A stretch of 64,000 bases of DNA, from assembly GCA_028713415.1 (NCBI GenBank), contig JAQTOI010000001.1, positions 18,651-82,650 on the forward strand. The letters run 5' to 3'. Source of the stretch: Candidatus Omnitrophota bacterium (GTDB taxonomy: Bacteria > Omnitrophota > Gorgyraeia > Duberdicusellales > 4484-171). Below are positions 15,101 through 28,479 of this stretch, one piece after another. The notes under the pieces were generated by a model. The model made no database searches, had not been told where the DNA came from, and saw nothing but the letters and a program-made list of their open reading frames with translations. Within the stretch, counting starts at the first letter, position 1; each line of letters opens with the position of its first letter. Both the position numbers and the translations under genes were made by a program.

Positions 15101-15340
15101 ATGGAAATTAAGCCAAACGAAGTCTATACTACCGAAGAAACCCAAGCATTACTTAAGATAAGCCCTTCTACGACCATGCGCCTTATTAAAAAAGGTGTTA
15201 TTCGTACCGCCAAAGTAGGAAAACAATATCGTATATTGGGAAAAGAGTTGCTTCGTCTTCTTTCGCCGACTCTGGAAGATAAGGTAGGGAAAGTCTACAA
15301 TAAAGGTAGGCATTGGTTACACAAAGATGTAGATGGATGA
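15101..15340 (+). CDS. Small helix-turn-helix DNA-binding protein, excisionase/MerR-like (HTH_17) family
   Basis: 80 aa from 15101 (the ORF track gives 15065, 91 aa). ...VYTTEETQALLKISPSTTMRLIKKGVIRTAKVGKQYRI... matches the excisionase-family DNA-binding domain pattern (T.EEAA.LLGVS..T.YRLI..G.LPA.KVGR.WRI). Confidence 0.55.
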   Translation: MEIKPNEVYTTEETQALLKISPSTTMRLIKKGVIRTAKVGKQYRILGKELLRLLSPTLEDKVGKVYNKGRHWLHKDVDG

Positions 15341-15364
15341 CGCAAGGATATTAAAAAGGAGCTA

Positions 15365-16351
15365 ATGCACATGAAGGATATATTTAAAAACAAGGTGGTG
15401 CTCATTACAGGCGGGACAGGATCCTTTGGCCAGAAATTTACCGAGATAGTTATAAAAAACTACAAACCCAGAAAACTTATTATTTTCAGCCGTGACGAGA
15501 TGAAACAGTATGAGATGCAAAAACGGTTTAATCAGGAAAACCTGCGTTATTTTGTGGGCGATGTGCGCGATCCCGATCGATTACATAGAGCTTTTGAGGG
15601 CGTGGATATTGTCGTGCATGCCGCCGCGTTAAAAATAGTCCCAACCGCAGAATATAATCCTTTTGAAGCCATTAGGACAAATATCCTTGGAGGAGAAAAC
15701 ATAATCAATGCCGCGATAGACCATAATGTCGCAAAAGTGCTGGCGATAAGCTCAGATAAGGCTGTCAATCCGGTCAACCTTTATGGCGCTACAAAAATGT
15801 GCATGGAAAAATTATTCGTTGCTGCCAATGCCTATGCCGGCAAGCACGTAACGAGAATGGCATGCGCCCGATACGGAAATGTGGTAGGTTCGCGGGGCAG
15901 CATAGTGCCATTGTTCAAAAAGCAGGCGAAAGCTGGGACAATAACCATAACTGATGAACGGATGACCAGGTTCTGGATCACGCTTGAGCAGGGAGTGAAA
16001 TTTGTCATTTCATGCATCGAAAACATGTATGGAGGCGAAATATTTGTACCGAAGATTCCAACCATGAAGATAATCGATCTTGCAAAAGCAGTCGCGCCCA
16101 AATGCAAAATAAAGAAGATAGGCATTCGCCCGGGAGAAAAGATCCATGAATGCATGTTGACCGAGGATGAGACGCGCCATGCCATGGAGTTTAAGGATTT
16201 CTTTGTGATAGAGCCCGAACATTACTGGTGGAAAAAGCAAGGGCATCTTAAGAACGGCAAAAGAATGCCGGAGGGATTTCGCTATTCGAGCGATACCAAT
16301 GAACAGTGGCTTACGAGCAAAGACATCCTTACGATGATCGGCGAGGATTAA
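15365..16351 (+). CDS. pseB: UDP-N-acetylglucosamine 4,6-dehydratase (inverting), PseB/FlaA1
   Basis: 328 aa. KVVLITGGTGSFGQKF...IFSRDEMKQYEMQ..F..GDVRD and the YGATK catalytic block match the PseB/CapD short-chain family. Confidence 0.85.
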   Translation: MHMKDIFKNKVVLITGGTGSFGQKFTEIVIKNYKPRKLIIFSRDEMKQYEMQKRFNQENLRYFVGDVRDPDRLHRAFEGVDIVVHAAALKIVPTAEYNPFEAIRTNILGGENIINAAIDHNVAKVLAISSDKAVNPVNLYGATKMCMEKLFVAANAYAGKHVTRMACARYGNVVGSRGSIVPLFKKQAKAGTITITDERMTRFWITLEQGVKFVISCIENMYGGEIFVPKIPTMKIIDLAKAVAPKCKIKKIGIRPGEKIHECMLTEDETRHAMEFKDFFVIEPEHYWWKKQGHLKNGKRMPEGFRYSSDTNEQWLTSKDILTMIGED

Positions 16352-17502
16352 TGATGAAAATCATTCCATACGGTCATCAATCCATTGACAGGCACGACAT
16401 AAAGCAGGTAATTGCCGTTTTAAAATCTGATTGGATTACCCAGGGACCGAAAATAAAAGAATTTGAAGATGATCTTTGCAGATATACCGGCGCACGTTTT
16501 TGCTTGGCGGTTTCAAGCGGGACAGCTGCGTTGCATGTCGCGTGCCTGGCAGCGGGAGTGCAAAGAGGAGATGAGGTCATCACAACACCTATTACTTTTG
16601 CTGCCTCAGCGAATTGCGCTTTGTATTGTGGAGGCAAGCCGGTTTTTGCCGATGTACAAAAAGATACCATAAACATCGATCCTTTTGCGATATCGAAAAA
16701 AATAAACACAAAAACAAAAGTATTGATCCCGGTCCATTTTGCAGGGTACCCCTGTGATTTAAAAGAGATCAATCGCATTGCAAAAAAAAATAATCTTATA
16801 GTTATCGAGGATGCCGCGCATGCCCTGGGTGCAACCTACCAGAATAAAAAAATCGGCTCATGTACTTACTCTGACATGACGGTCCTTAGCTTTCACCCCG
16901 TTAAAACCATCACTACCGGTGAAGGCGGTGCTGTCTTGACAAATAGTAAGAGCCTGTATGAAAAGCTTGTCATGTTCAGAAATCACGGCATAACCAAGAG
17001 TAACTTTAAGCGTGCACCCGAGGGGGAATGGTACCATGAGATGCGATGCTTAGGATATAACTACCGGATAACTGATTTTCAAGCTGCACTGGGTATCTCA
17101 CAGCTGCGGAAAGTAGATAGCTTTATAAAAGCAAGACAAAGTATAGCGGATATATACAAAAAGGCATTTAGCGGTAATCCTTATTTTGATCTTTTATCAG
17201 AACCCCGCGGTGCGCAGTCTTCGCATCATTTGTTTGCGATACTGTTAAAGGATCATTACAAAAGAGAAAGAAAACAAATATTTGCCAACCTAAGAAAGAA
17301 TGGGCTTGGCGTGCAGGTGCATTATATTCCAGTATATTTTCATCCTTATTATCAGCAGTTAGGCTTTAAGAGAGGCATTTGCCCGGTTGCAGAGGATTTC
17401 TATCAAAGAGAAATAAGCATACCTATATACCAGTCTATGAGTAAAGCAGCAATGCAAAGTGTTATTAAGAAAGTTTTAAAAGTATTTACGGGATACCGAT
17501 GA
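16351..17502 (+). CDS. pseC: UDP-4-amino-4,6-dideoxy-N-acetyl-beta-L-altrosamine transaminase, PseC (DegT family)
   Basis: ORF track begins at 16306, inside pseB. The ATG at 16351 overlaps the pseB stop (TAATG) and gives MMKIIPYGHQSIDRHDIKQVIAVLKSDWITQGPKI.EFE..L, the canonical PseC N-terminus. PLP-lysine block SFHPVKTITTGEGG. An A9 tract lies inside the gene (16782-16790). Confidence 0.8.
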   Translation: MMKIIPYGHQSIDRHDIKQVIAVLKSDWITQGPKIKEFEDDLCRYTGARFCLAVSSGTAALHVACLAAGVQRGDEVITTPITFAASANCALYCGGKPVFADVQKDTINIDPFAISKKINTKTKVLIPVHFAGYPCDLKEINRIAKKNNLIVIEDAAHALGATYQNKKIGSCTYSDMTVLSFHPVKTITTGEGGAVLTNSKSLYEKLVMFRNHGITKSNFKRAPEGEWYHEMRCLGYNYRITDFQAALGISQLRKVDSFIKARQSIADIYKKAFSGNPYFDLLSEPRGAQSSHHLFAILLKDHYKRERKQIFANLRKNGLGVQVHYIPVYFHPYYQQLGFKRGICPVAEDFYQREISIPIYQSMSKAAMQSVIKKVLKVFTGYR

Positions 17503-18362
17503 ATAAAATTGCTCTTGGATCAGCGCAGTTTGGAGCACATTACGGAATCAATAATCGCAGAGGAAAGATACCGGCAAACGAGGTCTTTGAAATCCTTGAT
17601 TTCGCTTCAGCCTCACAGATAGATTTACTCGACACTGCTTTTGAATACGGCGAGAGCGAAAACGTTATCGGCTATTACGAGAGAGCGCACGGTTGCCCTT
17701 TTAAAATAGTATCTAAGCTGCCGCAGTGTGCGGGCAGAGAAGTTAAAGACCTCTTCGATGCATCGCTTACGAGGCTACATGCAAAAAGTCTTTACGGGTA
17801 TCTCATACATAATTTTAAATATTTCAATGAGCATCCTGATATCTGGCGCATTTTGGAGATATTAAAGGCAGAGGGAAAAATTGAAAAGATAGGTTTCTCG
17901 ATATATTATCCAACGGAACTTGAGACACTTTTTAAGCGGAACATCAGATTCGATATGATACAGTTCCCTTACAGCATTTTAGACCAAAGGTTTACAGCGT
18001 ACTTTTCTGAACTTAAAAAGAGGGGAATTGAAATACACGTCCGCTCGGTCTTTCTTCAGGGATTGATATTTAAAGAAGCAGCTTTCTTAAATGAGAAGTT
18101 CTCAAAAATAAAGGATACAATAACGCAGATCAGATCTTTGGCCAAGGATAAGGGTATTTCGCTTGTTGCGCTCTGTGTCAATTTTGCCGCACTTAATGAA
18201 TTTATAGATAAGATTATAATCGGGGTAGATAGCCTTGGGAACCTAAAAGAAATAGTTTCATCGCGCAATTATACCAGTAACGTTGAAGAGGTCTTAAGCC
18301 AGCTTGCTACTTTGCGTGAGGATGACGAAACAATGATAGTGCCTGCAAAATGGAGGATTTAA
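17499..18362 (+). CDS. Aldo/keto reductase family oxidoreductase
   Basis: 287 aa. IALGSAQFG...LDTAFEYGESENVIG is the AKR signature. Confidence 0.6.
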   Translation: MNKIALGSAQFGAHYGINNRRGKIPANEVFEILDFASASQIDLLDTAFEYGESENVIGYYERAHGCPFKIVSKLPQCAGREVKDLFDASLTRLHAKSLYGYLIHNFKYFNEHPDIWRILEILKAEGKIEKIGFSIYYPTELETLFKRNIRFDMIQFPYSILDQRFTAYFSELKKRGIEIHVRSVFLQGLIFKEAAFLNEKFSKIKDTITQIRSLAKDKGISLVALCVNFAALNEFIDKIIIGVDSLGNLKEIVSSRNYTSNVEEVLSQLATLREDDETMIVPAKWRI

Positions 18363-19144
18363 AAGTGGATATAACTGCTATCATACAGGCAAGGCTTACC
18401 TCAACAAGGCTCCCGGGTAAGGTGTTGTTGCCTTTGGGTGATAAGCCGTTGATCTGGTATGTGTATAAGCGTACCTGCATGGCAGGCAAGATTAAAAAGG
18501 TCGTAGTTGCTACTTCAAGCGAAAAATCCGATGAGCCTTTGGTAAATTATTGTTTAAAGGAAAATATCCCCGTATTGAGAGGAAGTATGGACGACGTATT
18601 GGACAGATATTATCAGGTAGCTAAACAAATAAACGCACGCCACATAGCCAGGATTACGGCGGATTGCCCATTGATAGATCATACAATTTTAGATGCCATG
18701 GCTAATGAGTATAGTAGAGTTAGTAACGATATAGATTATCTTTCCAATACTCACCCTCCGACATTCCCCGATGGAATGGATTGCGAAATTTTTTCTTTTA
18801 ATACTTTAGAGAAAGCGTGGAAAAGCGCAACACTGCAATCAGAGAGAGAACACGTAACGCCCTATATGTATAATAATCCCGATAAATTCAACATACAAAA
18901 CTTTGAAAATGATGAGGATTATTCTCATATACGTTTAACCGTGGATGAAAAAGAAGATTACGAACTCGTCAAAAGAGTATACAGCCATTTTGATTACAGA
19001 TTGGATTTTGATACACACGATATAATCGCGTTCCTGTCAAAAGAAAAAGAATTTGCAAAAATAAATAATAAGTTTGCAAGGAATGAAGGGTATCTAAAAT
19101 CTGTCCGCCAGGATAAAAAACAGCAACAAAAGAAGAGAGAATAA
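18350..19144 (+). CDS. pseF: Acylneuraminate cytidylyltransferase-family protein (CMP-nonulosonate synthetase, PseF-like / SpsF-like)
   Basis: 264 aa. ITAIIQARLTSTRLPGKVLLPLGDKPLIWYV is the CTP_transf_3 N-terminal motif. Located inside the Pse cluster. Confidence 0.6.
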   Translation: MEDLKVDITAIIQARLTSTRLPGKVLLPLGDKPLIWYVYKRTCMAGKIKKVVVATSSEKSDEPLVNYCLKENIPVLRGSMDDVLDRYYQVAKQINARHIARITADCPLIDHTILDAMANEYSRVSNDIDYLSNTHPPTFPDGMDCEIFSFNTLEKAWKSATLQSEREHVTPYMYNNPDKFNIQNFENDEDYSHIRLTVDEKEDYELVKRVYSHFDYRLDFDTHDIIAFLSKEKEFAKINNKFARNEGYLKSVRQDKKQQQKKRE

Positions 19145-19153
19145 CGGTCCATC

Positions 19154-20581
19154 ATGAAGCCAAAAAAAGTGTTATTTATCTACCCGAACATTAATACGGA
19201 GCTAAGGATTCCGTTAGCGATTTCTATCCTTATAGCGTGTATCCGAAAAGCAGGGCATCAGGTTAAACTATTCGACACTACTTTTATGGTAGAAGATTTC
19301 GCGACTGATAATGAAGCAATGACGAATTTAGGCACTCATATGCCCACCAACCTGGTAGACATGGTCGGCCGCTTGCGCAAGGTTAATATAAAGGAAGAAT
19401 TCCATAAGGCCATAAAAGAATATTCGCCGGATCTGATTGCAGCCAGCCTCGTTGAAAGGAACTTTCCTACGGCAAAACAGCTTTTTTCATCGGTTAAGAA
19501 AGAGTTCCCGGACCTGCCGGTGCTTATCGGAGGTATTATGTCTACCATAGCCCCGGAACTTGTCATCAGAGAAGACTGGGTGGATATACTCTGTGTTGGC
19601 GAAGGTGAACACACTATCGTAGAACTGTTAAATAAGCTGGATGATCGAAATGCCCTGCGCAGCATAAAGAATATTTGGACTAAAGATGTCAATGGAAAAG
19701 TTTTTTCTAACCAGTTAAGAGATTTGATTGCTATGGACGATGTGCCTGATCAGGATTGGAGTGATTTTGATTTACGTCATCTTTTAAAACCCTTTATGGG
19801 TAAAGTTTACAGAGGAGGCGCATTTGAGTTTAGCAGGGGTTGCAGTAAGGTGTGTACCTTTTGCGTGGCCCCTCAGCTGAGGAATACACAAAAAGGCCTT
19901 GGAAAGTACCACCGGACAAAAACCCCGAATGTGGCGATAGGGGAAATAGAGCATAAAGTTAAGGATTATAATCTTAATATGATTTCTTTTGGAGACACTG
20001 ATTTTTTGAGCGAAGTGCCCAAGGACGTTATGAAAGAGTTTCTTTCTTTATATATCGAGCGTATTCAATTGCCTTTTACTATTCAATCCGGGATTGAGAC
20101 GCTCGCGGACGAAGAGATATTATCGCTTTTAAGGAAGGCCCGTTGCTGCGCAGTCAGCGTCGGTGTGGAGAGCGGCTCTGACACGATAAGAAAGAATATA
20201 ATCAAGAAATTCGTTTCCAAAGAATTTATTAAAAAGGCATTTGCGTTGTGCCGCGCACATGAACTAAGAATAACCGCAAATTATATGATAGGATTACCAT
20301 TCGAAACTGAAGATGATGTATTTGAAACGATAAGGTTCAACAAAGAGATCAATCCGCCCTCCATCGCCGTAACTTTTTTTACGCCCTTTGTCGGCACTGA
20401 ACTGTATGACATCAGTGTGAAAGAAGGTTTTTACAACCCTTTTAATATAGGGTCAAACAATTATAAGGGTTCTCCTCTGGAGATGCCCAATCTTTCTTCA
20501 GAGCGGATCTATGTGCTCGTGAAGGAATTCGTTAACGAATTTAAATCGTATCAGAAGGATTTTAATATAATAAATTCATGA
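19154..20581 (+). CDS. B12-binding domain-containing radical SAM protein (class B radical SAM, probable methyltransferase)
   Basis: 475 aa. N-terminal cobalamin-binding-like region (LIGGIMSTIAPELV...DILCVGEGEHTIVELL). CxxxCxxC radical SAM cluster motif in FEFSRGCSKVCTFCV. Confidence 0.75.
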   Translation: MKPKKVLFIYPNINTELRIPLAISILIACIRKAGHQVKLFDTTFMVEDFATDNEAMTNLGTHMPTNLVDMVGRLRKVNIKEEFHKAIKEYSPDLIAASLVERNFPTAKQLFSSVKKEFPDLPVLIGGIMSTIAPELVIREDWVDILCVGEGEHTIVELLNKLDDRNALRSIKNIWTKDVNGKVFSNQLRDLIAMDDVPDQDWSDFDLRHLLKPFMGKVYRGGAFEFSRGCSKVCTFCVAPQLRNTQKGLGKYHRTKTPNVAIGEIEHKVKDYNLNMISFGDTDFLSEVPKDVMKEFLSLYIERIQLPFTIQSGIETLADEEILSLLRKARCCAVSVGVESGSDTIRKNIIKKFVSKEFIKKAFALCRAHELRITANYMIGLPFETEDDVFETIRFNKEINPPSIAVTFFTPFVGTELYDISVKEGFYNPFNIGSNNYKGSPLEMPNLSSERIYVLVKEFVNEFKSYQKDFNIINS

Positions 20582-21531
20582 AGAAATCATACAGCGAATT
20601 GTTGGATAAGGAATTGTTAAGTTTCGTAGATCCGAACACCGGAATGCTTTCGGTAGCTCATTCTTCAATGATAGATTGCCCTATATGTGAAACAAGTTCC
20701 CTGCGGCAAAGAGAGTTATTTATTAAGCGGGGATACAGATTCGTTCTCTGCGCAGGGTGTGGGCTTATTTTTTCCAACCCGTCTATTCATAACGAGGCTA
20801 ACCGTGCATTGTATGACCAGGCCCCATCTATTAAATGCTGGTCAGAAATCCTGCAAACGCAAGACCAGAGGGGCAAAGATCTCTGTCTGTATAGTTCTTT
20901 AATTGCTTTAACAAGTAAGCTTGTTAAGCATAATGCGCCCAGGTGTCTTGATATATCCATGAGAGCGGGGCTTGCAGCCGGGTTATTTAAAAAGCGAGGA
21001 TGGAAGAGCGATTTTTATGATTTTTCTAAATACACAAGAGAGTTAGGAAAGCGAAAATTGCCCCGTGTTAGATTCTACGATTCTTTTGACTCTATTGTGA
21101 AAGCGAAAAATACCTATGATGTTGTCGTTAGCATGGAGGCAATGGAGCATTTTGCTAACCCAAGTTTTTTTATGGAGAATGTTTCGAAAATTCTTGCAAA
21201 GGGAGGTATTTTTTGTGGTTTTGTTTCAAACGTAGAAAGCATGCTTGTGCGTGTTATGGGTTCTGAGGCACCGCTCTTTGACGGTTTGTATCAAAAATTC
21301 TTTTTCCACACAGGATCTCTGAAGGCGTTATTTAAAGAGTTCAACTTTATTCCTAAAAATTTTAAGACGTTCATACCGGCTCTTGAAAAAACAGAGAAAT
21401 TTTTTAATCGAATGTTACCGGAAAGACTCTCGGCTTTCTCGCGCGCGGACATGGCGAAGATATTTAGAGTTATAAAAGAGAGCGATACCCTGGGATATAA
21501 ATTATTATTCGTTGCCAAAAAACTTAAGTAG
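20578..21531 (+). CDS. Putative SAM-dependent methyltransferase with N-terminal Cys4 zinc-ribbon (divergent motif I)
   Basis: 317 aa. CPICE...CAGCG zinc ribbon. Class I MTase-like core (CLDISMRAGLAAG...VVVSMEAMEHF) with a degenerate glycine-rich motif. Confidence 0.4.
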   Translation: MKKSYSELLDKELLSFVDPNTGMLSVAHSSMIDCPICETSSLRQRELFIKRGYRFVLCAGCGLIFSNPSIHNEANRALYDQAPSIKCWSEILQTQDQRGKDLCLYSSLIALTSKLVKHNAPRCLDISMRAGLAAGLFKKRGWKSDFYDFSKYTRELGKRKLPRVRFYDSFDSIVKAKNTYDVVVSMEAMEHFANPSFFMENVSKILAKGGIFCGFVSNVESMLVRVMGSEAPLFDGLYQKFFFHTGSLKALFKEFNFIPKNFKTFIPALEKTEKFFNRMLPERLSAFSRADMAKIFRVIKESDTLGYKLLFVAKKLK

Positions 21532-21558
21532 CGCGAAGTTAGAAGATAAGTAATCATT

Positions 21559-22869
21559 ATGGGTAAGTCGCAGAATTTATACAGGAAAGCTAAGAATATA
21601 ATACCGGGAGGTACCCAGCTTCTATCAAAAAGACCCGAGATGTTTTTGCCTGATTTTTGGCCGGCATATTACAAGGAAGCCAAAGGATGCTACGTTGTTG
21701 ATCTCGATGGGAAAAGTTACACAGATATGAGCTATATGGGTATCGGCTCATGCATATTGGGGTACGCTGACAGTGACGTAAATAAAGCCGTAAAAAGAGC
21801 AATTGACAGCGGTTCAATGTCTACGCTTAATGCTCCGGAGGAGTTTGAGCTAGCCAAAGTTCTTATCGCCTTACACCCCTGGGCGGATATGGTGCGCTAT
21901 GCGCGCACTGGTGGTGAAGCAATGGCTATGGCGGTAAGGATTGCGCGAGCCGCGAGCAGGAAAGATGCGGTGTTGTTTTGCGGTTACCATGGTTGGCATG
22001 ACTGGTATCTAGCGGCAAATTTAGCGAGCGATAGCGCATTAGACGGCCATCTCTTACCCGGTCTTAACCCTTTAGGTGTGCCGCGAACATTACAGGGTAC
22101 AGCATTTCCGTTTAGATACAACGATATTGAAAATTTCTTAAAACTTATAAAAATACACAAAAATAACATTGGGGTTGTGGTGATGGAATCTATCCGCGAC
22201 CAGAAGCCTATAAGGGAATTCCTCGCAACGATACGGGAAGTTACGAAAAAACTTAAAATAGTTCTCATTGTAGATGAAATTACCGCCGGTTTCCGGCTCA
22301 ATACCGGCGGAGCGCATTTATTGTTTGGACTTAAGCCCGATATGGCTGTTTTTGCCAAGGGTATGAGTAATGGATTTCCCATGGCTGCCGTAATCGGTAA
22401 AGAAGAGATTATGCAACGTGCCCAAGATACCTTTATAAGCAGTACCTACTGGACGGATAAAATTGGACCTACGGCAGCCCTGGCTACCATAAAAAAGTTT
22501 AGGACCTGCAATGTTTCGAAGCATCTTGCCTATGTTGGCAGGCTAGTTCAGGAGGGTTGGCGTACCTTGGCCGCCAAACACGCCCTTAAAACAGAAATCT
22601 CAGGGATGTTGCCGCTTGGGCATTTTTCATTCCAGTACGATAAACCCCTGGAATTAAAAACGCTGTTTACTCAATTGATGCTTGCAAAGGGATTCCTTGC
22701 TACGAATGCTTTCTATGCTTCATATGCGCATAAAGAGGAGCACGTGCAAAAATATTTAAGCGCCGTCGGTGAGGCGTTTGCTTTTATAGCAAAGGCAATA
22801 AAAAAAGGCAATCCCGCTAAATTCTTGAAAGGCCCGGTGTGCCATAGCGGATTTAAGAGATTAACGTAA
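21559..22869 (+). CDS. Class III aminotransferase (glutamate-1-semialdehyde 2,1-aminomutase-like)
   Basis: 436 aa. ...KAKNIIPGGTQLLSKRPE......GCYVVDLDGKSYTD and LIVDEITAGFRLNTGGA are hallmarks of the GSA-AT / AT-III fold. Confidence 0.75.
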   Translation: MGKSQNLYRKAKNIIPGGTQLLSKRPEMFLPDFWPAYYKEAKGCYVVDLDGKSYTDMSYMGIGSCILGYADSDVNKAVKRAIDSGSMSTLNAPEEFELAKVLIALHPWADMVRYARTGGEAMAMAVRIARAASRKDAVLFCGYHGWHDWYLAANLASDSALDGHLLPGLNPLGVPRTLQGTAFPFRYNDIENFLKLIKIHKNNIGVVVMESIRDQKPIREFLATIREVTKKLKIVLIVDEITAGFRLNTGGAHLLFGLKPDMAVFAKGMSNGFPMAAVIGKEEIMQRAQDTFISSTYWTDKIGPTAALATIKKFRTCNVSKHLAYVGRLVQEGWRTLAAKHALKTEISGMLPLGHFSFQYDKPLELKTLFTQLMLAKGFLATNAFYASYAHKEEHVQKYLSAVGEAFAFIAKAIKKGNPAKFLKGPVCHSGFKRLT

Positions 22870-22876
22870 ACTATTC

Positions 22877-23860
22877 ATGAAAGTTTTGATATTGACTGAA
22901 GGCGGCTGCGGCATCGGGTTCGGGCATATGGCACGATGCCAATCCCTCTATCAGGCTTTTAAGATACGGAAGACAACTACACAATTTATCATCAATGCAG
23001 ATACAGCAGCACGCAATTTTTTCAAAAACAAAGATGCTATTTTTCTTAATTGGATTAAAGAAAGAGCACAGCTTTTCAAATATATAGAGAAAGCCGATAT
23101 GGTAATCATCGATTCGTATCTGGCTGACCTGGCTCTCTATAAAAAAATATCCAGTAGGGTAAAAAAACTCGTTTGTATTGACGATACTGTGCGCCTGGAT
23201 TACCCTTGCAAAGTGATTGTCAACGGTGCCGTTTTCGCTCAAAATTTAAACTATCGTCAGAAAAAAGGCATTACCTTTTTGCTCGGCAGTAAATACACTC
23301 CGCTGCGAAAAGAATTCTGGAAGGTGTCGAATAAAAAAATCCGTGCGAGAATAAAGAATATTTTAATAATGCTCGGCGGTACTGACATAGCGAATTTACT
23401 CAAAGGTGCTATGGGGATGTTGAATAAAAAGTATCCTTTGTATCAGAAAAAGATTATCGTCGGGTGCGGATTTAAAAATACCAGATTTCTTGATCAACTA
23501 TCCGATATGCATTGCAGGGTTATTTACAACCCCGATGCAAAAGCAATAAAAAGAGAAATGCTTGCCTCTGATGTGGCTATTTCTGCAGGCGGACAGACGC
23601 TCTATGAGCTTGCCAGAGTCGGCGTACCCACGGTAGCAATCCGTGTTGCCGCAAATCAATCGAATAATTTAAAAGGCTTACGCAAAGCAGGATTTATCGA
23701 ATATGCCGCAAGCGCTACGAACAGCAAACTTTTCAATACCATAGGGAAATGTCTCGATACGATAAAGGACCAGCGCATCAGGGAAACCATGTCACGTAAG
23801 GGTAGAGCCCTTGTGGATGGTGCCGGCGCACTACGGATTGTCGATTATTTACTAAACTGA
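22877..23860 (+). CDS. pseG: UDP-2,4-diacetamido-2,4,6-trideoxy-beta-L-altropyranose hydrolase, PseG (GT28-like)
   Basis: 327 aa. MKVLILTEGGCGIGFGHMARCQSL matches the PseG N-terminal G.GH..R motif. Similar size and MurG-like C-terminal half. Confidence 0.7.
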   Translation: MKVLILTEGGCGIGFGHMARCQSLYQAFKIRKTTTQFIINADTAARNFFKNKDAIFLNWIKERAQLFKYIEKADMVIIDSYLADLALYKKISSRVKKLVCIDDTVRLDYPCKVIVNGAVFAQNLNYRQKKGITFLLGSKYTPLRKEFWKVSNKKIRARIKNILIMLGGTDIANLLKGAMGMLNKKYPLYQKKIIVGCGFKNTRFLDQLSDMHCRVIYNPDAKAIKREMLASDVAISAGGQTLYELARVGVPTVAIRVAANQSNNLKGLRKAGFIEYAASATNSKLFNTIGKCLDTIKDQRIRETMSRKGRALVDGAGALRIVDYLLN

Positions 23861-23862
23861 TT

Positions 23863-24570
23863 ATGAAGAAGAAAAAAAAGATAATCATAGCAACCATCAA
23901 ACCCTGGAACATCGCAATAGCAAAAAAATTCCACGACACATTTAGAGGTAAATATCAGGTCATTATCATCAGTTCAAAGAGTAATTTCACCTATCAGCGC
24001 ATTCGTACTATCAACCCTGAATACATATTTTTTCCGCATTGGTCCTGGAAAATTGCTGCGGAAATCTATGAAAATTTTAATTGTGTCGTGTTCCATATGA
24101 CCGATTTACCTTTTGGCAGGGGAGGCAGCCCTTTGCAGAATCTTATAGTGAGGGGAAAAACCAAAACGAAAATATCAGCCATCAAAGTAGTAAAAGATAT
24201 TGATGCGGGATCCATCTATTTAAAGAAAGATTTATCCCTTAAGGGCCCTGCCCAGAGCATATATGAAAAAGCTTCAAAGATAATTTTTAATGAGATGATT
24301 CCCCGTATCGTTGGCAACCGGCATCTTCCTAAGCCTCAGCGCGGCAGAGTTGTCTTTTTTAAGAGAAGAGAACCTAGGGAAAGCCGGATACCTGCTGGTT
24401 CCAGCATTAAGGGCATCTATGATCATATCCGTATGCTCGACGCTTACGATTATCCTCATGCATTCATCGAAACAAAAGATTTTCGTATCGAATTCACTAA
24501 AGCATATAAAGATGGTAACAGTGTTGTGGCGCAAGCGCGTATTAAAAAAAGGAGCGACGATGAAGCGTAA
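23863..24570 (+). CDS. Formyltransferase-family protein (Fmt/ArnA N-domain-like)
   Basis: 235 aa. NCVVFHMTDLPFGRGGSPLQ contains the conserved Asn, catalytic His and the LP..RG..P folate-binding signature. Confidence 0.7.
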   Translation: MKKKKKIIIATIKPWNIAIAKKFHDTFRGKYQVIIISSKSNFTYQRIRTINPEYIFFPHWSWKIAAEIYENFNCVVFHMTDLPFGRGGSPLQNLIVRGKTKTKISAIKVVKDIDAGSIYLKKDLSLKGPAQSIYEKASKIIFNEMIPRIVGNRHLPKPQRGRVVFFKRREPRESRIPAGSSIKGIYDHIRMLDAYDYPHAFIETKDFRIEFTKAYKDGNSVVAQARIKKRSDDEA

Positions 24571-25240
24571 GATTTTGATAATCGCGGCTCACCCTGACGA
24601 TGAGATCTTAGGGTGCGGCGGTTCTGCTGCCCGGTTCGTTGCAGAAGGAAACGAAGTTTCCACCCTTATCTTAGGAGAAGGAATAACCTCGAGAGACCAA
24701 ACACGGCGCAGAGAATTAAGGAAAAAAGATCTGAAAAAATTAAAAACGGAAGTTTATGATGCGAATAATGCGATAGGCGTAAAAAATATTTTTCTCAATG
24801 ATTTTCCCGACAATCGTTTTGACACGATGGCATTTTTGGATATCGTAAAGGTAATTGAGAAAGTAAAAGATAAAATTTCACCGGATACACTATATACTCA
24901 TTGCCGGCAGGACTTAAATATCGACCATAGAATAACCTACCAGGCAGTTTTAACGGCATGCCGGCCGCTTCAGGGAGAAACTGTTAAGGAGATCTACTCT
25001 TTTGAAGTGCCTTCTTCGACTGAGTGGAATTACCCTTATGCGTTTAGTCCCAATATTTTTATAACAATCGATAAATCTATCCAGAAGAAACTCGATGCTT
25101 TACGGTGTTATTCAAGTGAAATAAGAGATTTTCCTCATCCGAGGTCTCTAGAGGCAGTTAAAGTAAATGCGCGCCGCTGGGGCAGCGTAGCCGGAGTTAG
25201 TTACGCCGAAGCCTTTGAGCTTATACGAAGTATCCAATGA
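24560..25240 (+). CDS. LmbE/PIG-L family N-acetylsugar deacetylase
   Basis: ORF track 24311 start is inside the upstream gene. ATG at 24560 with AAAGGAG upstream gives MKRKILIIAAHPDDEILGCGG, the AHPDDE zinc-binding motif of PIG-L deacetylases. Confidence 0.7.
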   Translation: MKRKILIIAAHPDDEILGCGGSAARFVAEGNEVSTLILGEGITSRDQTRRRELRKKDLKKLKTEVYDANNAIGVKNIFLNDFPDNRFDTMAFLDIVKVIEKVKDKISPDTLYTHCRQDLNIDHRITYQAVLTACRPLQGETVKEIYSFEVPSSTEWNYPYAFSPNIFITIDKSIQKKLDALRCYSSEIRDFPHPRSLEAVKVNARRWGSVAGVSYAEAFELIRSIQ

Positions 25241-25707
25241 AAAGGCACGATGATCTTATCTTAAGCCCGGCATCAGGCGATGACTGCAAAGACCTTTGGG
25301 TCTGGAGGAATAATCCGCTTATAAGAATAAATTTTTTTGATACGGAATGCGTTGGCTGGGAAGAGCATAAGAAATGGTTCAATTCAAATATTGCAAACCC
25401 CAATACGAGGATTTATATCGCCAAACAAGGAACAAAAAAAACTGGCGTTATTAGATTTGAAATAAAGGATAACTGCACGCAAGTTAGTGTGAATCTTAAT
25501 CCTGATTATTTAGGCAAGGGTTTAGGCGCAAAAATCATAGAACAGGGGTCAGAGAGATTTATAAGCGAAACAAAGAACGTAAAACCCATTATTGCCGAAA
25601 TTAAAAAAAATAATATAGCATCACAAAAGGCTTTCGCAAAAGCGGGTTTTGCGTTTATTAAGGAAGACGATACGCGAGTGATTTATCAAAAAATAAGAGG
25701 CAAATAA
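25237..25707 (+). CDS. pseH: GNAT N-acetyltransferase, PseH-like (UDP-4-amino-4,6-dideoxy-AltNAc N-acetyltransferase)
   Basis: 156 aa, the PseH size class. GNAT core GKGLGAKIIEQG...IAEIKKNNIASQKAFAKAGF. Located between the LmbE gene and pseI. Confidence 0.6.
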   Translation: MKRHDDLILSPASGDDCKDLWVWRNNPLIRINFFDTECVGWEEHKKWFNSNIANPNTRIYIAKQGTKKTGVIRFEIKDNCTQVSVNLNPDYLGKGLGAKIIEQGSERFISETKNVKPIIAEIKKNNIASQKAFAKAGFAFIKEDDTRVIYQKIRGK

Positions 25708-25711
25708 TTCA

Positions 25712-26740
25712 ATGAGAAATTTTTTTAAACGAGATGATAGCGTGTTTGTGATTGCGGAAATTTCTGCAAACCACGGAAAGAATTTTAAAAGAGCAGTATC
25801 GTTAATTAAGAAAGCCAAGGAATGCGGAGTAGATGCCGTGAAATTTCAAACGTATACTCCTGATACAATGACCCTCGATGTTAAAAACAGACATTTTATG
25901 ATAAAGCATCCAAGATGGGGCGGACAGACTTTATATCAATTATACAAGGAGGCATATACTCCCTGGAAATGGTTTAAAGAGTTAAAGCGTGTTGCAGGAG
26001 ATGCGGGATTAACGTTTTTCTCTACCGCATTTGATAAAACTTCCGTTGATTTTTTAGAGAATCTTGGCGTACCCCTTCATAAGATCGCCTCATTCGAGCT
26101 GGTAGATTTACCTCTGATCGAATATATAGCCAAAACAAAAAAACCCCTCATTATATCGACAGGAATGGCAACGCGCTCAGAAATTAAGGATGCCGTCAAT
26201 ACGGCAAAGAGGCACGGGACAAGCAATTTAATGTTGCTAAAATGCGTAAGCAGCTACCCCGCTAAACCGCAAGATTTGAATTTAAGGACAATTCCCGACT
26301 TAAAGAAGCTTTTTAAATGTCCCGTAGGGCTTTCAGACCACAGCCTGACTACTGTTACATCAGTTGCCGCGGTTGCGCAGGGAGCAACAATAATTGAAAA
26401 GCATTTTACTCTGTCGCGAAACATAAAAACACCGGATAGTTTTTTTTCTTTAGAGCCCCGGGAATTAAAAGAGTTGGTGGAGAGCATACGAATCGTTGAA
26501 AAAGCCCTAGGGAGAGTGAGTTATGGCCTGGGAGAGGAAGAGAAAAAAAACAGAGTTTTTAGACGCTCGTTGTTCTTTGTCAAGGATACTAAGAAAGGGG
26601 AAGTTTTGACAGAAGAAAACATTAGGGCCATAAGGCCGGCATCCGGTCTTAAACCAAAATATTTGCGGTCAGTCCTGAATCGCAAAGCAAAAAAAAATAT
26701 TGAAAAAGGGACACCTTTAACTAAGGAATTGATTTCCTAA
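25712..26740 (+). CDS. pseI: Pseudaminic acid synthase PseI (NeuB family)
   Basis: 342 aa. VIAEISANHGKNFKRAVSLIKKAKECGVDAVKFQTY is the NeuB/PseI TIM-barrel N-terminus. C-terminal SAF/antifreeze-like domain. Confidence 0.85.
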   Translation: MRNFFKRDDSVFVIAEISANHGKNFKRAVSLIKKAKECGVDAVKFQTYTPDTMTLDVKNRHFMIKHPRWGGQTLYQLYKEAYTPWKWFKELKRVAGDAGLTFFSTAFDKTSVDFLENLGVPLHKIASFELVDLPLIEYIAKTKKPLIISTGMATRSEIKDAVNTAKRHGTSNLMLLKCVSSYPAKPQDLNLRTIPDLKKLFKCPVGLSDHSLTTVTSVAAVAQGATIIEKHFTLSRNIKTPDSFFSLEPRELKELVESIRIVEKALGRVSYGLGEEEKKNRVFRRSLFFVKDTKKGEVLTEENIRAIRPASGLKPKYLRSVLNRKAKKNIEKGTPLTKELIS

Positions 26741-26748: not shown

Positions 26749-28479
26749 ATGAAAATAGCACTGGTAGAAAGAGAAGACAGTTTCAACGCGGATGGTTTCG
26801 ATAAAATTATCCCTTTCTGCAGACATAACTACACAAATCAGGATAATTTGATTGAATTGTCTGAAATTTTTAAGATTTCTGACGATATCCATTCTGGTTT
26901 ACAGGGCTGGATGGATCAAAACAAAACGGAAGTAAATTTCGTCTATTTAGGAGCCGATATCTTACAGGCTTACGGCGCAAACATTTTTGAATATCTTTTC
27001 AATTTTTATCCAAAGGTGTACGCTCTTAAAAAAGTACTAAAGAAAGAATCCCCCGCGCAATTATGGATATCAAGCCCCGAAGCTGAACCCAGCTTAGAAA
27101 ACCCTTACCTTAATCAATTTATAGCTGATTTTCTTCCCGATAGCGTTGCGCTCAAGTATTTTGAATATCATAAGAAACCTGCTTCAGGAGCCCGTAAGCC
27201 GAAAAATCATACCTTGCGATCTATCAGGTTTATGTTAGATCTGATACGCAAACTCTCAAACGCAATCAGCCAGAACAAAAAAAACGATATTTTGATATGC
27301 TCTGACATGAGCAGGGTTAAAACTTTGTTAAAGCATCTTAAGCGTTCGGGCGTAATTTTCATACGAGAAGATTTTCCCGAAAGGCTTATCTTTCCTCTTT
27401 GTCTTGAGTCCATTAACCTTAAATTATTTTCAGATTTTAAAATATCAGGGTTTCAAGAAAAAGAAATTTCCGCAAAACGTATTGCTTTTATAGAGAAACT
27501 ATCACAAACAACAAGTAAATGCATTGTAGGAGGGTTAGACCTTACGCCATATGTTAAGAAATATCTTACCACGCTTTGGCAAAGGGAGCTGCTGCGTACG
27601 TTAGAGAGAGTTTGTCAAATGCATTCTCTGTTTAAGATTTTTCAAATAAAATCTTTACTGGTTGATGAGGACATAACAGTTCAAAAAAACTTGTTGGTCC
27701 AAGTTTCTAAGAACTATCACTGCAAATCTTATGTTAGCTGTCACGGCGACCCGTTTTACAAAATAGGAACAGTGCCCTTAACTGCCGACTATATATTGGC
27801 ATGGGGCGCTTATCAGAAAAATTTATTTATTAAATGGGGCCTAAGCGAAAACAAAATTCTTATTACCGGCAGCCTAAAGTATGACCAATATAAAAATATG
27901 CCCGCTCAAGAGGCAAAGAGGAGAATATGCAAAGATTTAAAATTGATATATTCAAAACAGGTGCTGCTGATTATCCCTTACCCCCTTAACTATAAAAGTA
28001 TAGTTTGGGAAAATTATTTTTGGCTTGAAAATAAGCGGATAGCAAGCGTTGCGAGCGCTTTTAAAGACCTGCAGATCGTCATAAAAGTTCATCCTTGTGA
28101 TATAAATGTATCTGAATGGTGTGCTCTGGCAGAAAGCCTGGGTATAAAACAAACAAATGTTTTAAAGAATTATGACCCATTGCTGTTGGCCAAGGGCGTT
28201 GATTTGTTGGCGGTGAGCCTATCTACGTTTGCGATCGATGGTATGGCTTATAAAAAACCAGTGATTTTGACAGATGGGTATAGTATGGAAAAGTATCAAA
28301 CATTAAATATATTCTATGACGGTACCACCGGGGAAAAACTTAAGAATTCCATCAGCGGCATTTTGAATGGCTCATATAAGAACCATATTGTTAATTGGCA
28401 GGCGGCAGCGGATTATATGCTTAATGGTATGGGAGATAGAATTTCTCAGACAATAATGGAGATATTAGAGCAACGATAG
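26749..28479 (+). CDS. GT-B-like TagF/KpsS-family protein, candidate nonulosonic-acid (pseudaminyl) or polyol-phosphate transferase
   Basis: 576 aa. C-terminal region has TagF-like blocks (VLLIIPYP...IVIKVHP...DPLLLAKGVDLLAVSLSTFAIDGMAYKKPVILTD), resembling the KxHP and D..L...D.LITDYSS motifs. Sits directly after pseI. Confidence 0.35.
   Translation: MKIALVEREDSFNADGFDKIIPFCRHNYTNQDNLIELSEIFKISDDIHSGLQGWMDQNKTEVNFVYLGADILQAYGANIFEYLFNFYPKVYALKKVLKKESPAQLWISSPEAEPSLENPYLNQFIADFLPDSVALKYFEYHKKPASGARKPKNHTLRSIRFMLDLIRKLSNAISQNKKNDILICSDMSRVKTLLKHLKRSGVIFIREDFPERLIFPLCLESINLKLFSDFKISGFQEKEISAKRIAFIEKLSQTTSKCIVGGLDLTPYVKKYLTTLWQRELLRTLERVCQMHSLFKIFQIKSLLVDEDITVQKNLLVQVSKNYHCKSYVSCHGDPFYKIGTVPLTADYILAWGAYQKNLFIKWGLSENKILITGSLKYDQYKNMPAQEAKRRICKDLKLIYSKQVLLIIPYPLNYKSIVWENYFWLENKRIASVASAFKDLQIVIKVHPCDINVSEWCALAESLGIKQTNVLKNYDPLLLAKGVDLLAVSLSTFAIDGMAYKKPVILTDGYSMEKYQTLNIFYDGTTGEKLKNSISGILNGSYKNHIVNWQAAADYMLNGMGDRISQTIMEILEQR

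What the first reader, a model, noticed from the sequence alone, without database searches (positions are those of the whole stretch)
15365..26740. Pseudaminic acid pathway interrupted by B12-radical SAM, methyltransferase, class III aminotransferase, formyltransferase and LmbE deacetylase genes
pseB, pseC, a pseF-like gene, pseG, pseH and pseI are all present and recognisable. A block of tailoring genes sits inside the canonical set: an aldo/keto reductase, a class B (cobalamin) radical SAM enzyme of the kind that methylates unactivated carbons, a zinc-ribbon methyltransferase, a GSA-like aminotransferase, a folate-type formyltransferase and a PIG-L deacetylase. Together these would allow N-acyl group exchange on the nonulosonate (deacetylation followed by formylation; 7-N-formyl pseudaminic acid is known in some O-antigens). 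They would also allow C- or N-methylation and possibly an extra amination. This gene combination is not part of the described Pse pathways. It could specify a new methylated or formylated nonulosonic acid.
Basis: partly seen in the sequence, partly recalled or inferred. Interest (0 to 1): 0.75.

Follow-up and report, generated by a model that had tools for sequence, protein, structure and literature searches.

The report
Pseudaminic acid operon with radical-SAM tailoring
A bacterial operon for the sialic-acid-like sugar pseudaminic acid carries a rare cobalamin-type radical SAM enzyme plus methyltransferase that, in other uncultured microbes and in a group of phages, always travels with such sugar genes, pointing to an undescribed chemical modification of these surface sugars.

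Summary
Window 15101-28479 is one tightly packed + strand operon in a Candidatus Omnitrophica MAG. PseB, PseC and PseI pass the NCBIfam equivalog cut-offs and PseG passes marginally. The GNAT is only PseH-like. The cytidylyltransferase is SpsF/KdsB-like, not a PseF equivalog.

- AKR + cytidylyltransferase + class III aminotransferase: a very common, highly conserved nonulosonate (NulO) module of unknown chemistry.
- Formyltransferase-like + deacetylase: a common pair. An analogous pair is linked by a 2026 preprint to N-formyl/free-amine CMP-NulOs in Kuenenia.
- B12-radical SAM + zinc-ribbon methyltransferase: rare, and inserted between two genes that are adjacent or fused in relatives.

Of 25 distinct loci whose rSAM is at least 38% identical, 19 hold NeuB and 22 hold NeuB or the cytidylyltransferase. 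Of 49 loci below 33% identity, 1 holds NeuB. A phage lineage carries the rSAM and a NulO gene island among its head genes.

No paper in the searched library links radical SAM enzymes to NulOs. The most likely function is methyl tailoring of CMP-pseudaminic acid, with the rSAM C-methylating an unactivated carbon. That step is inferred, not shown. This is a new variant of a known kind.

The parts
15054..15081 (+). Promoter-like site, a perfect TTGACA-16-TATAAT, followed by GAGGAG and the ATG at 15101
   Evidence: the only 12/12 match in 14500-30500. One search shows the sequence. This is a consensus match only. The total count of promoter-like sites is not above the shuffles (48 vs 43.0, sd 5.8).
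15101..15340 (+). Small HTH_17 (excisionase/MerR-like) DNA-binding protein, first gene of the operon
   Evidence: PF12728, 47.6 bits. The start was moved to 15101 because the listed ORF start (15065) lies inside the promoter-like site.
15365..16351 (+). PseB, inverting UDP-GlcNAc 4,6-dehydratase
   Evidence: TIGR03589, 510.6 bits (cut-off 407.75).
16351..17502 (+). PseC, UDP-4-amino-4,6-dideoxy-AltNAc transaminase
   Evidence: TIGR03588, 520.1 bits (cut-off 423.5). The ATG overlaps the pseB stop codon by 1 nt.
17499..18362 (+). Aldo/keto reductase, part of the conserved AKR-CT-AT3 module
   Evidence: PF00248, 94.8 bits. 50-53% identical homologues sit in the same position in L155 and L156.
18350..19144 (+). 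SpsF/KdsB-type cytidylyltransferase, presumed CMP-nonulosonate synthetase
   Evidence: CTP_transf_3, 120 bits; PseF model only 22 bits; PDB 6oew, 162 bits. It is fused to the class III aminotransferase in L062.
19154..20581 (+). Class B (B12-binding domain) radical SAM enzyme, the rare tailoring gene
   Evidence: PF02310 + PF04055; invariant C230/C234/C237; AlphaFold model with pLDDT 90; fold matches to TsrM, MgmA, OxsB, AprD4 and TokK. Linkage to NulO genes.
20578..21531 (+). Class I SAM methyltransferase with an N-terminal four-Cys zinc ribbon, translationally coupled to the rSAM (4-nt overlap)
   Evidence: Orthologues (43-46% identical) lie immediately downstream of the rSAM in L062 and one gene further down in L001.
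21559..22869 (+). Class III (GSA-aminomutase-like) aminotransferase
   Evidence: PF00202, 145.7 bits; hemL model 204 vs cut-off 527; GenB-type C-6' aminotransferases 122 bits.
22877..23860 (+). PseG, UDP-sugar hydrolase
   Evidence: TIGR03590, 155.6 bits (cut-off 153.55).
23863..24570 (+). Formyltransferase-superfamily protein of the 1zgh type
   Evidence: PF21553, 68.6 bits; 1zgh, 262 bits; ArnA, 47 bits. His and Asp of the catalytic triad are kept; the Asn is replaced by Val.
24560..25240 (+). PIG-L/LmbE-family N-deacetylase
   Evidence: PF02585, 82.4 bits; AHPDDE motif; start corrected to 24560.
25237..25707 (+). GNAT N-acetyltransferase, PseH-like
   Evidence: Acetyltransf_3, 42.9 bits; PseH model 47.9 bits (cut-off 93.1).
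25712..26740 (+). PseI, pseudaminic acid synthase
   Evidence: NeuB + SAF; TIGR03586, 464.9 bits (cut-off 340.25).
26749..28479 (+). 576-aa protein, possibly the nonulosonate transferase
   Evidence: no Pfam hit; weak BFO_1060 glycosyltransferase hit (28 bits vs 200). Proteins of about 590-690 aa with no Pfam hit or of the LIC12162 family hold this position in relatives. No direct similarity to them was found.
28578..30062 (+). MOP/Wzx-type flippase
   Evidence: Polysacc_synt_3, 56 bits.

Best explanation
Window 15101-28479 is a single operon. It makes a CMP-activated, N-acyl-edited and methylated derivative of pseudaminic acid for a Wzx/Wzy-type surface glycan.

Core steps, inferred from strong family matches. 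PseB and PseC convert UDP-GlcNAc to the 4-amino-6-deoxy-L-altrose nucleotide. The GNAT acylates N-4. PseG removes UDP. PseI condenses the sugar with PEP. The SpsF-type cytidylyltransferase makes the CMP-sugar.

Tailoring falls into three modules.
1. PIG-L removes one N-acetyl group and the adjacent formyltransferase-like enzyme re-acylates the amine or leaves it free. This rests on analogy with Kuenenia, where free-amine/N-formyl CMP-NulOs were measured.
2. AKR + class III aminotransferase act with the cytidylyltransferase, to which the aminotransferase is fused in one relative. They perform a carbonyl/amine exchange on the sugar. The position and the direction are unknown.
3. The B12-radical SAM enzyme and its translationally coupled zinc-ribbon methyltransferase form a discrete two-gene cassette inserted between the cytidylyltransferase and aminotransferase genes. 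I take the rSAM to be a cobalamin-dependent C-methyltransferase acting on the CMP-linked nonulosonate. Its target would be the C-9 methyl, another backbone carbon, or an N-acyl methyl. The class I enzyme would add an N- or O-methyl.

What is shown: the gene identities, the operon structure, and the specific, repeated linkage of this rSAM family to NulO genes. What is inferred: every catalytic step of the tailoring enzymes.

My sub-probabilities: rSAM family is NulO-pathway tailoring, 0.9. It is a methyltransferase, about 0.5. It acts at the CMP-sugar level, about 0.4.
For: Gene identities and operon structure:
- Family matches.
- Operon packing and promoter-like site.

Linkage of the rSAM to NulO genes:
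- Among distinct loci with at least 6 kb of flank, 19 of 25 with an rSAM at least 38% identical hold NeuB, and 22 of 25 hold NeuB or the cytidylyltransferase.
- Only 1 of 49 loci below 33% identity holds NeuB.
- The contexts span Omnitrophica, Scalindua, Desulfobacterales, Pseudomonadota, Bacteroidetes and archaeal MAGs.

Neighbours of the rSAM:
- A class I methyltransferase lies next to it in 16 of 21 cellular loci.
- The cytidylyltransferase lies directly upstream in the window and in the Scalindua-type loci.
- CT and AT3 are adjacent (L155, L156, L005) or fused (L062) where the cassette is elsewhere or absent. In the window the cassette therefore interrupts them.

Independent contexts:
- Phage contigs carry the rSAM together with NeuB, methyltransferases, FT, PIG-L, DUF4910, CT, a PseB-like gene and AT3.
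- Other B12-rSAM subfamilies also sit in NulO clusters.

Class B identity of the rSAM:
- PF02310 58 bits, invariant CxxxCxxC, and a fold matching TsrM, MgmA, OxsB and TokK.
- The profile aligns over the B12 domain with the cobalamin-binding MgmA, TsrM, OxsB, TokK and CysS.

Published chemistry: +14 Da, N-formyl and free-amine CMP-NulOs in Kuenenia, and unexplained C10 ulosonic acids in Magnetospirillum.

Precedent from my own knowledge: Fom3 methylates a CMP-linked substrate, and GenK and GenD1 C-methylate aminosugars.
Against: - No named methylase model is passed. The best NCBIfam hits are the non-methylases HpnJ (138.8 vs 577.6) and BchE (134.3 vs 481).
- The best sequence and TM-score matches in the PDB include AprD4, a diol dehydratase that (to my knowledge) works without cobalamin.
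- A cobalamin-dependent rSAM methylase needs no partner methyltransferase. The tight pairing could instead mean that the rSAM creates a group which the methyltransferase then methylates.
- No cobalamin riboswitch, and no Rfam match at all, was found in the window.
- The formyltransferase-like protein lacks the catalytic Asn.
- The sugar product of this organism is unknown, and every related locus comes from a MAG or a viral contig.
- In four related loci (L008, L009, L012/L061, L013) no NeuB lies within the DNA held, although other NulO-type genes do.
Confidence: 0.55

Rival explanations
1. The rSAM is not a methyltransferase. It performs another radical reaction on the nonulosonate or its hexose precursor: dehydration or deamination as in AprD4 and DesII, oxidation as in BchE, or rearrangement as in HpnJ. 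The coupled class I methyltransferase then methylates the group that is created, or the AKR or aminotransferase processes the resulting carbonyl.
For: - HpnJ and BchE are the best family models.
- AprD4 is the best PDB sequence hit and has the highest TM-scores: 0.69/0.72.
- A methyltransferase is adjacent in 16 of 21 cellular loci.
- A reductase and an aminotransferase, the natural consumers of a radical-generated ketone, sit in the same operon.
- From my own knowledge, HpnJ works after a PIG-L deacetylase (HpnK), and a PIG-L gene is present here.
Against: - All of these scores are far below the family cut-offs.
- AprD4 aligns only over the rSAM half, whereas cobalamin-binding enzymes align over the N-terminal domain too.
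- AKR and AT3 occur massively without the rSAM. The rSAM occurs without AKR and AT3 in Scalindua-type clusters.
- Pseudaminic acid has no vicinal diol for an AprD4-type reaction (my own knowledge).
Confidence: 0.28
2. The rSAM-MT cassette modifies some other component of the glycan made by this large locus, not the nonulosonate. Candidates are another sugar or the acceptor.
For: The window holds many other methyltransferases and glycosyltransferases. In L008, L009, L012/L061 and L013 no NeuB was found in the DNA held.
Against: The cassette sits inside the NulO gene set, not among the glycosyltransferases, in the window and in most relatives. The NeuB-lacking loci still hold the cytidylyltransferase, AT3, PIG-L, FT and GNAT. 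Phages that carry the rSAM carry a NulO island.
Confidence: 0.1
3. The extra genes are an unrelated pathway that landed inside the pse operon by chance, or are decaying passengers.
For: The gene order differs from the canonical pse clusters, and the cassette position varies between genomes.
Against: All ORFs are intact and tightly or translationally coupled. There is no GC anomaly. The same combinations recur across phyla and in phages.
Confidence: 0.03

Closest known systems
Canonical CMP-pseudaminic acid pathway PseB-PseC-PseH-PseG-PseI-PseF (Helicobacter pylori, Campylobacter jejuni)
   Same: PseB, PseC and PseI pass the equivalog cut-offs and PseG passes marginally. A GNAT and a CTP_transf_3 cytidylyltransferase fill the PseH and PseF roles.
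   Different: The PseH and PseF equivalog models are not passed. Six extra enzymes lie inside the operon. The setting is a Wzx/Wzy polysaccharide locus rather than a flagellin glycosylation island.
Ca. Kuenenia stuttgartiensis Leg-type cluster with deacetylase + formyltransferase (bioRxiv 10.64898/2026.04.20.719630)
   Same: A deacetylase and a formyltransferase gene are embedded among NulO genes. The measured CMP-NulOs carry one free amine, one N-formyl group and +14 Da variants. Scalindua relatives with this architecture also carry the rSAM-MT cassette.
   Different: The preprint describes leg-type genes and reports no radical SAM gene. The Scalindua-type pair found here is Formyl_trans_N (with the Asn-x-His motif) plus a NodB-type deacetylase. 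The window has a 1zgh-type FT that lacks the Asn, plus PIG-L. I could not inspect the Kuenenia genome itself.
Legionella pneumophila serogroup 6/12 LPS cluster (PMC3694923)
   Same: It holds PseG, a GSA-aminomutase-like class III aminotransferase, a cytidylyltransferase, an aldo/keto reductase, DegT, CapD, NeuB, a methyltransferase and an aminopeptidase-like gene. That is the AKR-CT-AT3 module within a NulO cluster.
   Different: The table lists no B12-radical SAM, formyltransferase or PIG-L gene. It has HisH/HisF-type amidino genes instead.
Cobalamin-dependent radical SAM C-methyltransferases acting on sugars or CMP-linked substrates (GenK, GenD1, Fom3), recalled from my own knowledge
   Same: Two-domain B12-binding + radical SAM architecture. 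They act on an aminosugar or a CMP-activated substrate. GenB-type class III aminotransferases (122 bits to the window AT3) work in the same gentamicin pathway as GenK.
   Different: The NCBIfam methylase models score only about 80 bits. The substrate would be a nine-carbon ulosonic acid, which is unprecedented.
AprD4 (radical SAM 1,2-diol dehydratase, PDB 6fd2) and HpnJ/BchE-type non-methylating class B enzymes
   Same: These give the best PDB sequence hit and TM-score and the best NCBIfam models. AprD4 acts on an aminoglycoside sugar and is paired with a reductase.
   Different: Identity is about 17%. Only the rSAM half aligns by sequence. All family cut-offs are missed by a wide margin.
C. 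jejuni ptm tailoring genes (PtmG amidotransferase, PtmH methyltransferase)
   Same: Tailoring genes embedded between core NulO genes, yielding N-acyl-edited and methylated CMP-NulOs.
   Different: Different enzyme families. No radical chemistry.

Membership tests
Pseudaminic acid biosynthesis pathway | PseB, inverting UDP-GlcNAc 4,6-dehydratase | tested here: met
   TIGR03589, 510.6 bits vs cut-off 407.75
Pseudaminic acid biosynthesis pathway | PseC aminotransferase | tested here: met
   TIGR03588, 520.1 vs 423.5
Pseudaminic acid biosynthesis pathway | PseH N-acetyltransferase | tested here: inconclusive
   A GNAT is present and PseH is its best model, but 47.9 bits vs cut-off 93.1
Pseudaminic acid biosynthesis pathway | PseG UDP-sugar hydrolase | tested here: met
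   TIGR03590, 155.6 vs 153.55, a marginal pass
Pseudaminic acid biosynthesis pathway | PseI synthase | tested here: met
   TIGR03586, 464.9 vs 340.25; the NeuB/NnaB model stays below its cut-off
Pseudaminic acid biosynthesis pathway | PseF cytidylyltransferase | tested here: not met
   TIGR03584, 22.2 vs 205.7. The gene is an SpsF/KdsB-type CTP_transf_3. The role is plausibly filled by a non-orthologous enzyme.
Class B (cobalamin-dependent) radical SAM enzymes | CxxxCxxC cluster motif in a radical SAM core | tested here: met
   C230, C234 and C237 are invariant in 27 sequences; PF04055, 60.1 bits
Class B (cobalamin-dependent) radical SAM enzymes | N-terminal B12-binding Rossmann domain | tested here: met
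   PF02310, 58.2 bits vs 32.1. Conserved S-L-x-E-R and G-G-I motifs. The profile aligns with the B12 domains of MgmA, TsrM, OxsB, TokK and CysS. Fold matches.
Class B (cobalamin-dependent) radical SAM enzymes | Actual cobalamin binding | not testable with these tools
   AprD4 has the same fold and (to my knowledge) binds no cobalamin. Sequence alone cannot decide.
Named B12-rSAM methyltransferase families (PhpK, HpnR, MgmA, RiPP C-MT, TsrM-type) | Score above the family cut-off | tested here: not met
   PhpK 83.3 vs 600; HpnR 80 vs 650; MgmA-type 77.7 vs 360; RiPP C-MT 83.4 vs 282
HpnJ / BchE | Score above the family cut-off | tested here: not met
   HpnJ 138.8 vs 577.6; BchE 134.3 vs 481.35. 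No hopanoid or bacteriochlorophyll genes are nearby.
Folate-dependent formyltransferases (Fmt, ArnA-N, sugar N-formyltransferases) | Formyl_trans_N catalytic domain recognised | tested here: inconclusive
   No PF00551 hit at E <= 0.001 for the window protein. ArnA model 47 bits, Fmt (4iqf) 45.7 bits, VioF 18.6 bits. The phage orthologue does hit PF00551, at 30.5 bits.
Folate-dependent formyltransferases (Fmt, ArnA-N, sugar N-formyltransferases) | Catalytic Asn-x-His ... Asp triad | tested here: not met
   His and Asp are conserved. The Asn is replaced by Val/Ile/Leu throughout the 1zgh-type family. Scalindua-type FTs keep N-L-H.
PIG-L/LmbE deacetylases | PIG-L domain with the AHPDDE metal-binding motif | tested here: met
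   PF02585, 82.4 bits vs 28.2; the sequence IIAAHPDDE is present
Glutamate-1-semialdehyde 2,1-aminomutase (HemL) | Score above the equivalog cut-off | tested here: not met
   TIGR00713, 204.3 vs 527.3; PRK06209, 243.1 vs 486. It is a class III aminotransferase of another specificity.

The most novel reading that the evidence does not exclude
The B12-radical SAM enzyme C-methylates the carbon skeleton of the CMP-linked nonulosonate, for example turning the C-9 methyl into an ethyl group. The product would be a ten-carbon or branched ulosonic acid. This would supply the missing enzymology for the unexplained 'higher-carbon' C10 CMP-ulosonic acids reported in Magnetospirillum. It would also reveal a widespread radical tailoring layer on bacterial and archaeal sialic-acid-like sugars. 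That layer is carried by phages too, which could use it to rewrite the host surface or decorate their own particles.
Probability: 0.25. Interest if true: 0.85.

Novelty: new variant of a known kind. Interest (0 to 1): 0.62.

Why it matters
Pseudaminic and legionaminic acids cap flagella, S-layers, capsules and O-antigens. They govern phage recognition and immune evasion. Their known diversity comes from N-acyl and O-substituents added by ordinary transferases.

A conserved radical SAM tailoring enzyme would add carbon-skeleton or unactivated C-H chemistry to this sugar family. It would also give a concrete candidate for the genetic basis of the ten-carbon ulosonic acids seen by mass spectrometry, which so far have no explanation.

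The analysis further shows that the AKR-cytidylyltransferase-class III aminotransferase trio is a very common but uncharacterised part of environmental NulO pathways. Finally, phages with a NulO island among their head genes suggest that viruses manipulate sialic-acid-like surface sugars in uncultured lineages.

Tried and rejected
- Membership of the rSAM in HpnJ, BchE or any named methylase family: rejected, all scores are far below the cut-offs.
- Classification by fold: Foldseek against the PDB places it in class B but cannot separate methylases from AprD4 or OxsB. The afdb50 library was unavailable.
- Regulatory RNA: I looked for a cobalamin riboswitch or any Rfam family in the window and found none.
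- Literature: no paper in the searched library holds 'nonulosonic' + 'radical SAM', nor pseudaminic + radical SAM + cobalamin, nor pseudaminic + formyltransferase + LmbE. One irrelevant hit came up.
- Kuenenia: I tried to reach its cluster through the Scalindua formyltransferase. No hit could be assigned to Kuenenia, so whether it has the rSAM stays open.
- The 576-aa protein against the LIC12162-family proteins of related loci: no significant similarity.
- Recent-acquisition signal for the cassette: gene-by-gene GC and GC3 are ordinary.
- Window as prophage: rejected. The flanks are glycan-synthesis and housekeeping genes.
- AKR and AT3 as partners of the rSAM: rejected as a general rule, because each occurs without the other.

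Full report
**What is in the window.** The window comes from a Candidatus Omnitrophica MAG. The rSAM protein is 100% identical to an NCBI entry from an 86.5-kb contig. Between 15101 and 30062 all genes lie on the + strand, and from pseB to the 576-aa gene the gaps run from -13 to +27 nt. A perfect TTGACA-16-TATAAT site at 15054-15081 is followed by GAGGAG and the ATG of a small HTH_17 gene at 15101. It is the only 12/12 match in 14500-30500, but it is a consensus match only. The whole first 55 kb of the window is a surface-glycan super-locus. It holds two Bac_transf initiating transferases, two Wzy_C proteins, several PMT_2 GT-C enzymes and many glycosyl- and methyltransferases. Housekeeping genes follow (exonuclease VII, an M48 peptidase, PNPase). 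The locus is therefore chromosomal and not a prophage.

**Check of the observation.**
- PseB, PseC and PseI pass their NCBIfam equivalog cut-offs comfortably. PseG passes marginally.
- The GNAT is only PseH-like: 47.9 bits against a cut-off of 93.1.
- The 'pseF-like' gene is not a PseF equivalog (22 against 206 bits). It is an SpsF/KdsB-type CTP_transf_3 enzyme whose closest solved relative is 6oew.
- The AKR, the B12-binding radical SAM protein, the methyltransferase with a CPIC...CAGC zinc ribbon, the class III aminotransferase, the formyltransferase-like protein and the PIG-L deacetylase are all confirmed.
- The PIG-L gene starts at 24560, not at the long ORF's first start codon.

**The extra genes are three modules, not one block.**

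*Module 1: AKR, cytidylyltransferase, class III aminotransferase.*
The 120 listed are 68-75% identical and include proteins named as Omnitrophica, Methanoperedenaceae and Actinobacteria.
- Two contexts were picked from that list without regard to the rSAM. Both show PseB-like, DegT, AKR, CT, AT3, GNAT or FT, and NeuB in a row.
- In L062 the CT and AT3 are one 675-aa fusion protein.
- The same trio, with PseG, DegT, CapD and NeuB, is listed in the Legionella pneumophila Sg6/Sg12 LPS cluster (PMC3694923).
- The module is therefore common and probably core-like. I found no paper that assigns it a function.

*Module 2: formyltransferase-like protein plus deacetylase.*
- The two genes are adjacent in nearly all related loci. 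They come either as the 1zgh-type FT with PIG-L, or as a canonical Formyl_trans_N enzyme with a NodB-type deacetylase.
- The window's FT keeps the catalytic His and Asp but has Val in place of the Asn. The Scalindua-type FTs keep Asn-Leu-His.
- A 2026 preprint measured CMP-NulOs with one free amine, one N-formyl group and +14 Da variants in Ca. Kuenenia. It attributed them to a deacetylase and a formyltransferase embedded in the NulO cluster.

*Module 3: the B12-radical SAM enzyme and its methyltransferase.*
- This module is rare: 287 homologues in 5.8 billion proteins.
- In relatives CT and AT3 are adjacent or fused. In the window the rSAM-MT pair therefore sits as an insertion between them. 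Its GC content is ordinary.

**Linkage of the rSAM to nonulosonate genes.** I collected loci from GTDB species genomes, JGI metagenomes, IMG/VR and contig look-ups. I then searched them with the window's proteins.
- After removing duplicates and requiring at least 6 kb of flanking DNA, 25 loci have an rSAM at least 38% identical to the window's. Of these, 19 contain NeuB and 22 contain NeuB or the cytidylyltransferase.
- Among 49 loci with less than 33% identity, one contains NeuB. The family boundary is sharp.
- The linked loci come from MAGs labelled Scalindua, Desulfobacterales, Pseudomonadota, Gammaproteobacteria, Bacteroidetes and archaea.
- A class I methyltransferase lies next to the rSAM in 16 of 21 cellular loci. 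These methyltransferases belong to at least four unrelated subfamilies.
- The cytidylyltransferase lies directly upstream in the window and in the Scalindua-type loci.
- Other B12-rSAM subfamilies (449, 496 and 673 aa) and SPASM-type rSAMs also sit in NulO clusters. Radical SAM tailoring of these sugars seems to be a general but undescribed theme.

**What kind of rSAM it is.**
- The family has an invariant C230-x3-C234-x2-C237 motif and a conserved N-terminal Rossmann domain with S-L-x-E-R and G-G-I motifs.
- Pfam's B12-binding model scores 58 bits against a cut-off of 32.
- An AlphaFold model (pLDDT 90, pTM 0.90) matches TsrM, MgmA, OxsB, AprD4, TokK and CysS.
- A profile of the family aligns with MgmA over both domains (70.6 bits). 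It also aligns with the B12 domains of TsrM, OxsB, TokK and CysS. AprD4 scores highest (83.5 bits) but aligns only over the radical SAM half.
- Class B membership is therefore supported. Real cobalamin binding and methyl transfer cannot be decided from sequence.
- The best NCBIfam models are the non-methylases HpnJ and BchE, and every model is far below its cut-off.

**Most likely mechanism.**
- The core enzymes make pseudaminic acid and the SpsF-type enzyme activates it with CMP.
- PIG-L and the FT-like enzyme edit one N-acyl group.
- The rSAM-MT cassette adds methyl groups. I favour cobalamin-dependent C-methylation by the rSAM on the CMP-linked sugar, for four reasons. Most characterised class B enzymes are methylases. 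The gene is most often placed right after the cytidylyltransferase. Fom3 (my own knowledge) sets a precedent for a B12-rSAM that methylates a CMP-linked substrate. And +14 Da NulO variants, including an extended C10 backbone with no genetic explanation, have been measured.
- The main rival is a non-methylating radical reaction whose product is then methylated by the coupled class I enzyme, or processed by the AKR or aminotransferase.
- The role of AKR and AT3 is unknown. The CT-AT3 fusion, and the PseB-like/AT3 adjacency in a phage, place them on a nucleotide-linked sugar.

**Phages.**
- Apart from L062/L064 and L001 (65-67%), the closest relatives of the window's rSAM (55-66% identity) lie on IMG/VR viral contigs. 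They sit next to the terminase large subunit and portal genes, usually between them (phrog_38 261 bits; phrog_1216 83 bits).
- In the 29.5-kb contig IMGVR_UViG_3300035701_001831, an island of about 11 kb lies between the major head protein and an SU10-type adaptor. It holds NeuB, two methyltransferases, DUF4910/M28, a GNAT, an FT fragment, PIG-L, a GT1 glycosyltransferase, a GFO_IDH oxidoreductase, a short cytidylyltransferase, a PseB-like dehydratase and the class III aminotransferase.
- This is an independent context that ties the rSAM to nonulosonate synthesis, and it is notable in its own right.

**Novelty and verdict.** No paper in the searched library connects radical SAM enzymes with nonulosonic acids. 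The operon is a new variant of a known kind. It is a recognisable pseudaminic acid pathway with two common but poorly understood accessory modules and one rare, undescribed radical SAM cassette. The function of that cassette is inferred, not shown.

Noticed in passing
L144-L154 and L157 (IMG/VR); same contigs as L065-L076, L088 and L091 in the metagenome set: A phage lineage carries a 55-66% identical copy of the B12-radical SAM gene next to the terminase large subunit and portal genes, usually between them. On the longer contigs a nonulosonate island lies between the major head protein and the head-tail adaptor. It holds NeuB, methyltransferases, DUF4910, GNAT, an FT-like gene, PIG-L, GT1, GFO_IDH, a cytidylyltransferase, a PseB-like gene and a class III aminotransferase.
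   Followed up: partly
L066/L145 732-2942: The terminase large subunit of this phage is 736 aa, against about 485 aa in its relatives. The extra middle segment looks like an intein or homing-endonuclease insert. This was judged from the sequence only.
   Followed up: no
L062 3910-5937 and 6623-8179: Natural gene fusions: cytidylyltransferase + class III aminotransferase (675 aa) and PseG + GNAT (518 aa). The first ties the aminotransferase functionally to the CMP-activation step.
   Followed up: partly
L155 (Methanoperedenaceae-type contig) 1-165 and 17027-18517; L156 13021-15042; L061 4946-6619; L006, L084, L092: Further, only distantly related B12-binding radical SAM genes (449-673 aa) also sit inside nonulosonate clusters. 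SPASM-type radical SAM genes lie next to them in L005, L063, L061 and L155.
   Followed up: partly
L001 8990-9970; L002 12419-14485; L004 12574-14640; L154 11106-12038: A DUF4910/Peptidase_M28-like gene recurs next to the rSAM-MT cassette and in the phage island. In some loci it is fused to an Antibiotic_NAT acetyltransferase domain (688 aa). It is absent from the window. An 'aminopeptidase' gene holds the same place in the Legionella Sg6/12 cluster.
   Followed up: no
window 15054-15101: A perfect sigma-70 consensus (TTGACA, 16 nt, TATAAT) is followed by GAGGAG and the ATG of an HTH_17 gene directly upstream of pseB. It may be the operon promoter, with a small DNA-binding protein as the first gene.
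   Followed up: partly
window 7936-10116: A 726-aa fusion of an NAD-dependent epimerase/dehydratase with a DegT-type aminotransferase, flanked by PMT_2/ArnT-like GT-C enzymes (10113-11828, 13331-15004). This suggests a separate aminosugar lipid or glycan modification system just upstream.
   Followed up: no
window 358-55469: About 55 kb of almost uninterrupted + strand glycan genes. They include two Bac_transf initiating transferases (358-1770, 48204-49607), two Wzy_C proteins (1775-2965, 50379-51689), four PMT_2 GT-C proteins and at least seven class I methyltransferases. GC drops to about 0.35 between 28 and 37 kb.
   Followed up: partly
L011 (Ca. Scalindua sediminis contig), about 1600-16000: Three NeuB-family genes and three cytidylyltransferase genes lie within 20 kb around the rSAM homologue. 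This suggests several nonulosonate pathways in one locus.
   Followed up: no
L008 3352-4175: Downstream of the rSAM homologue, a zinc-ribbon methyltransferase like the window's is split into two ORFs (119 + 155 aa). This is either a frameshift or an assembly error.
   Followed up: no
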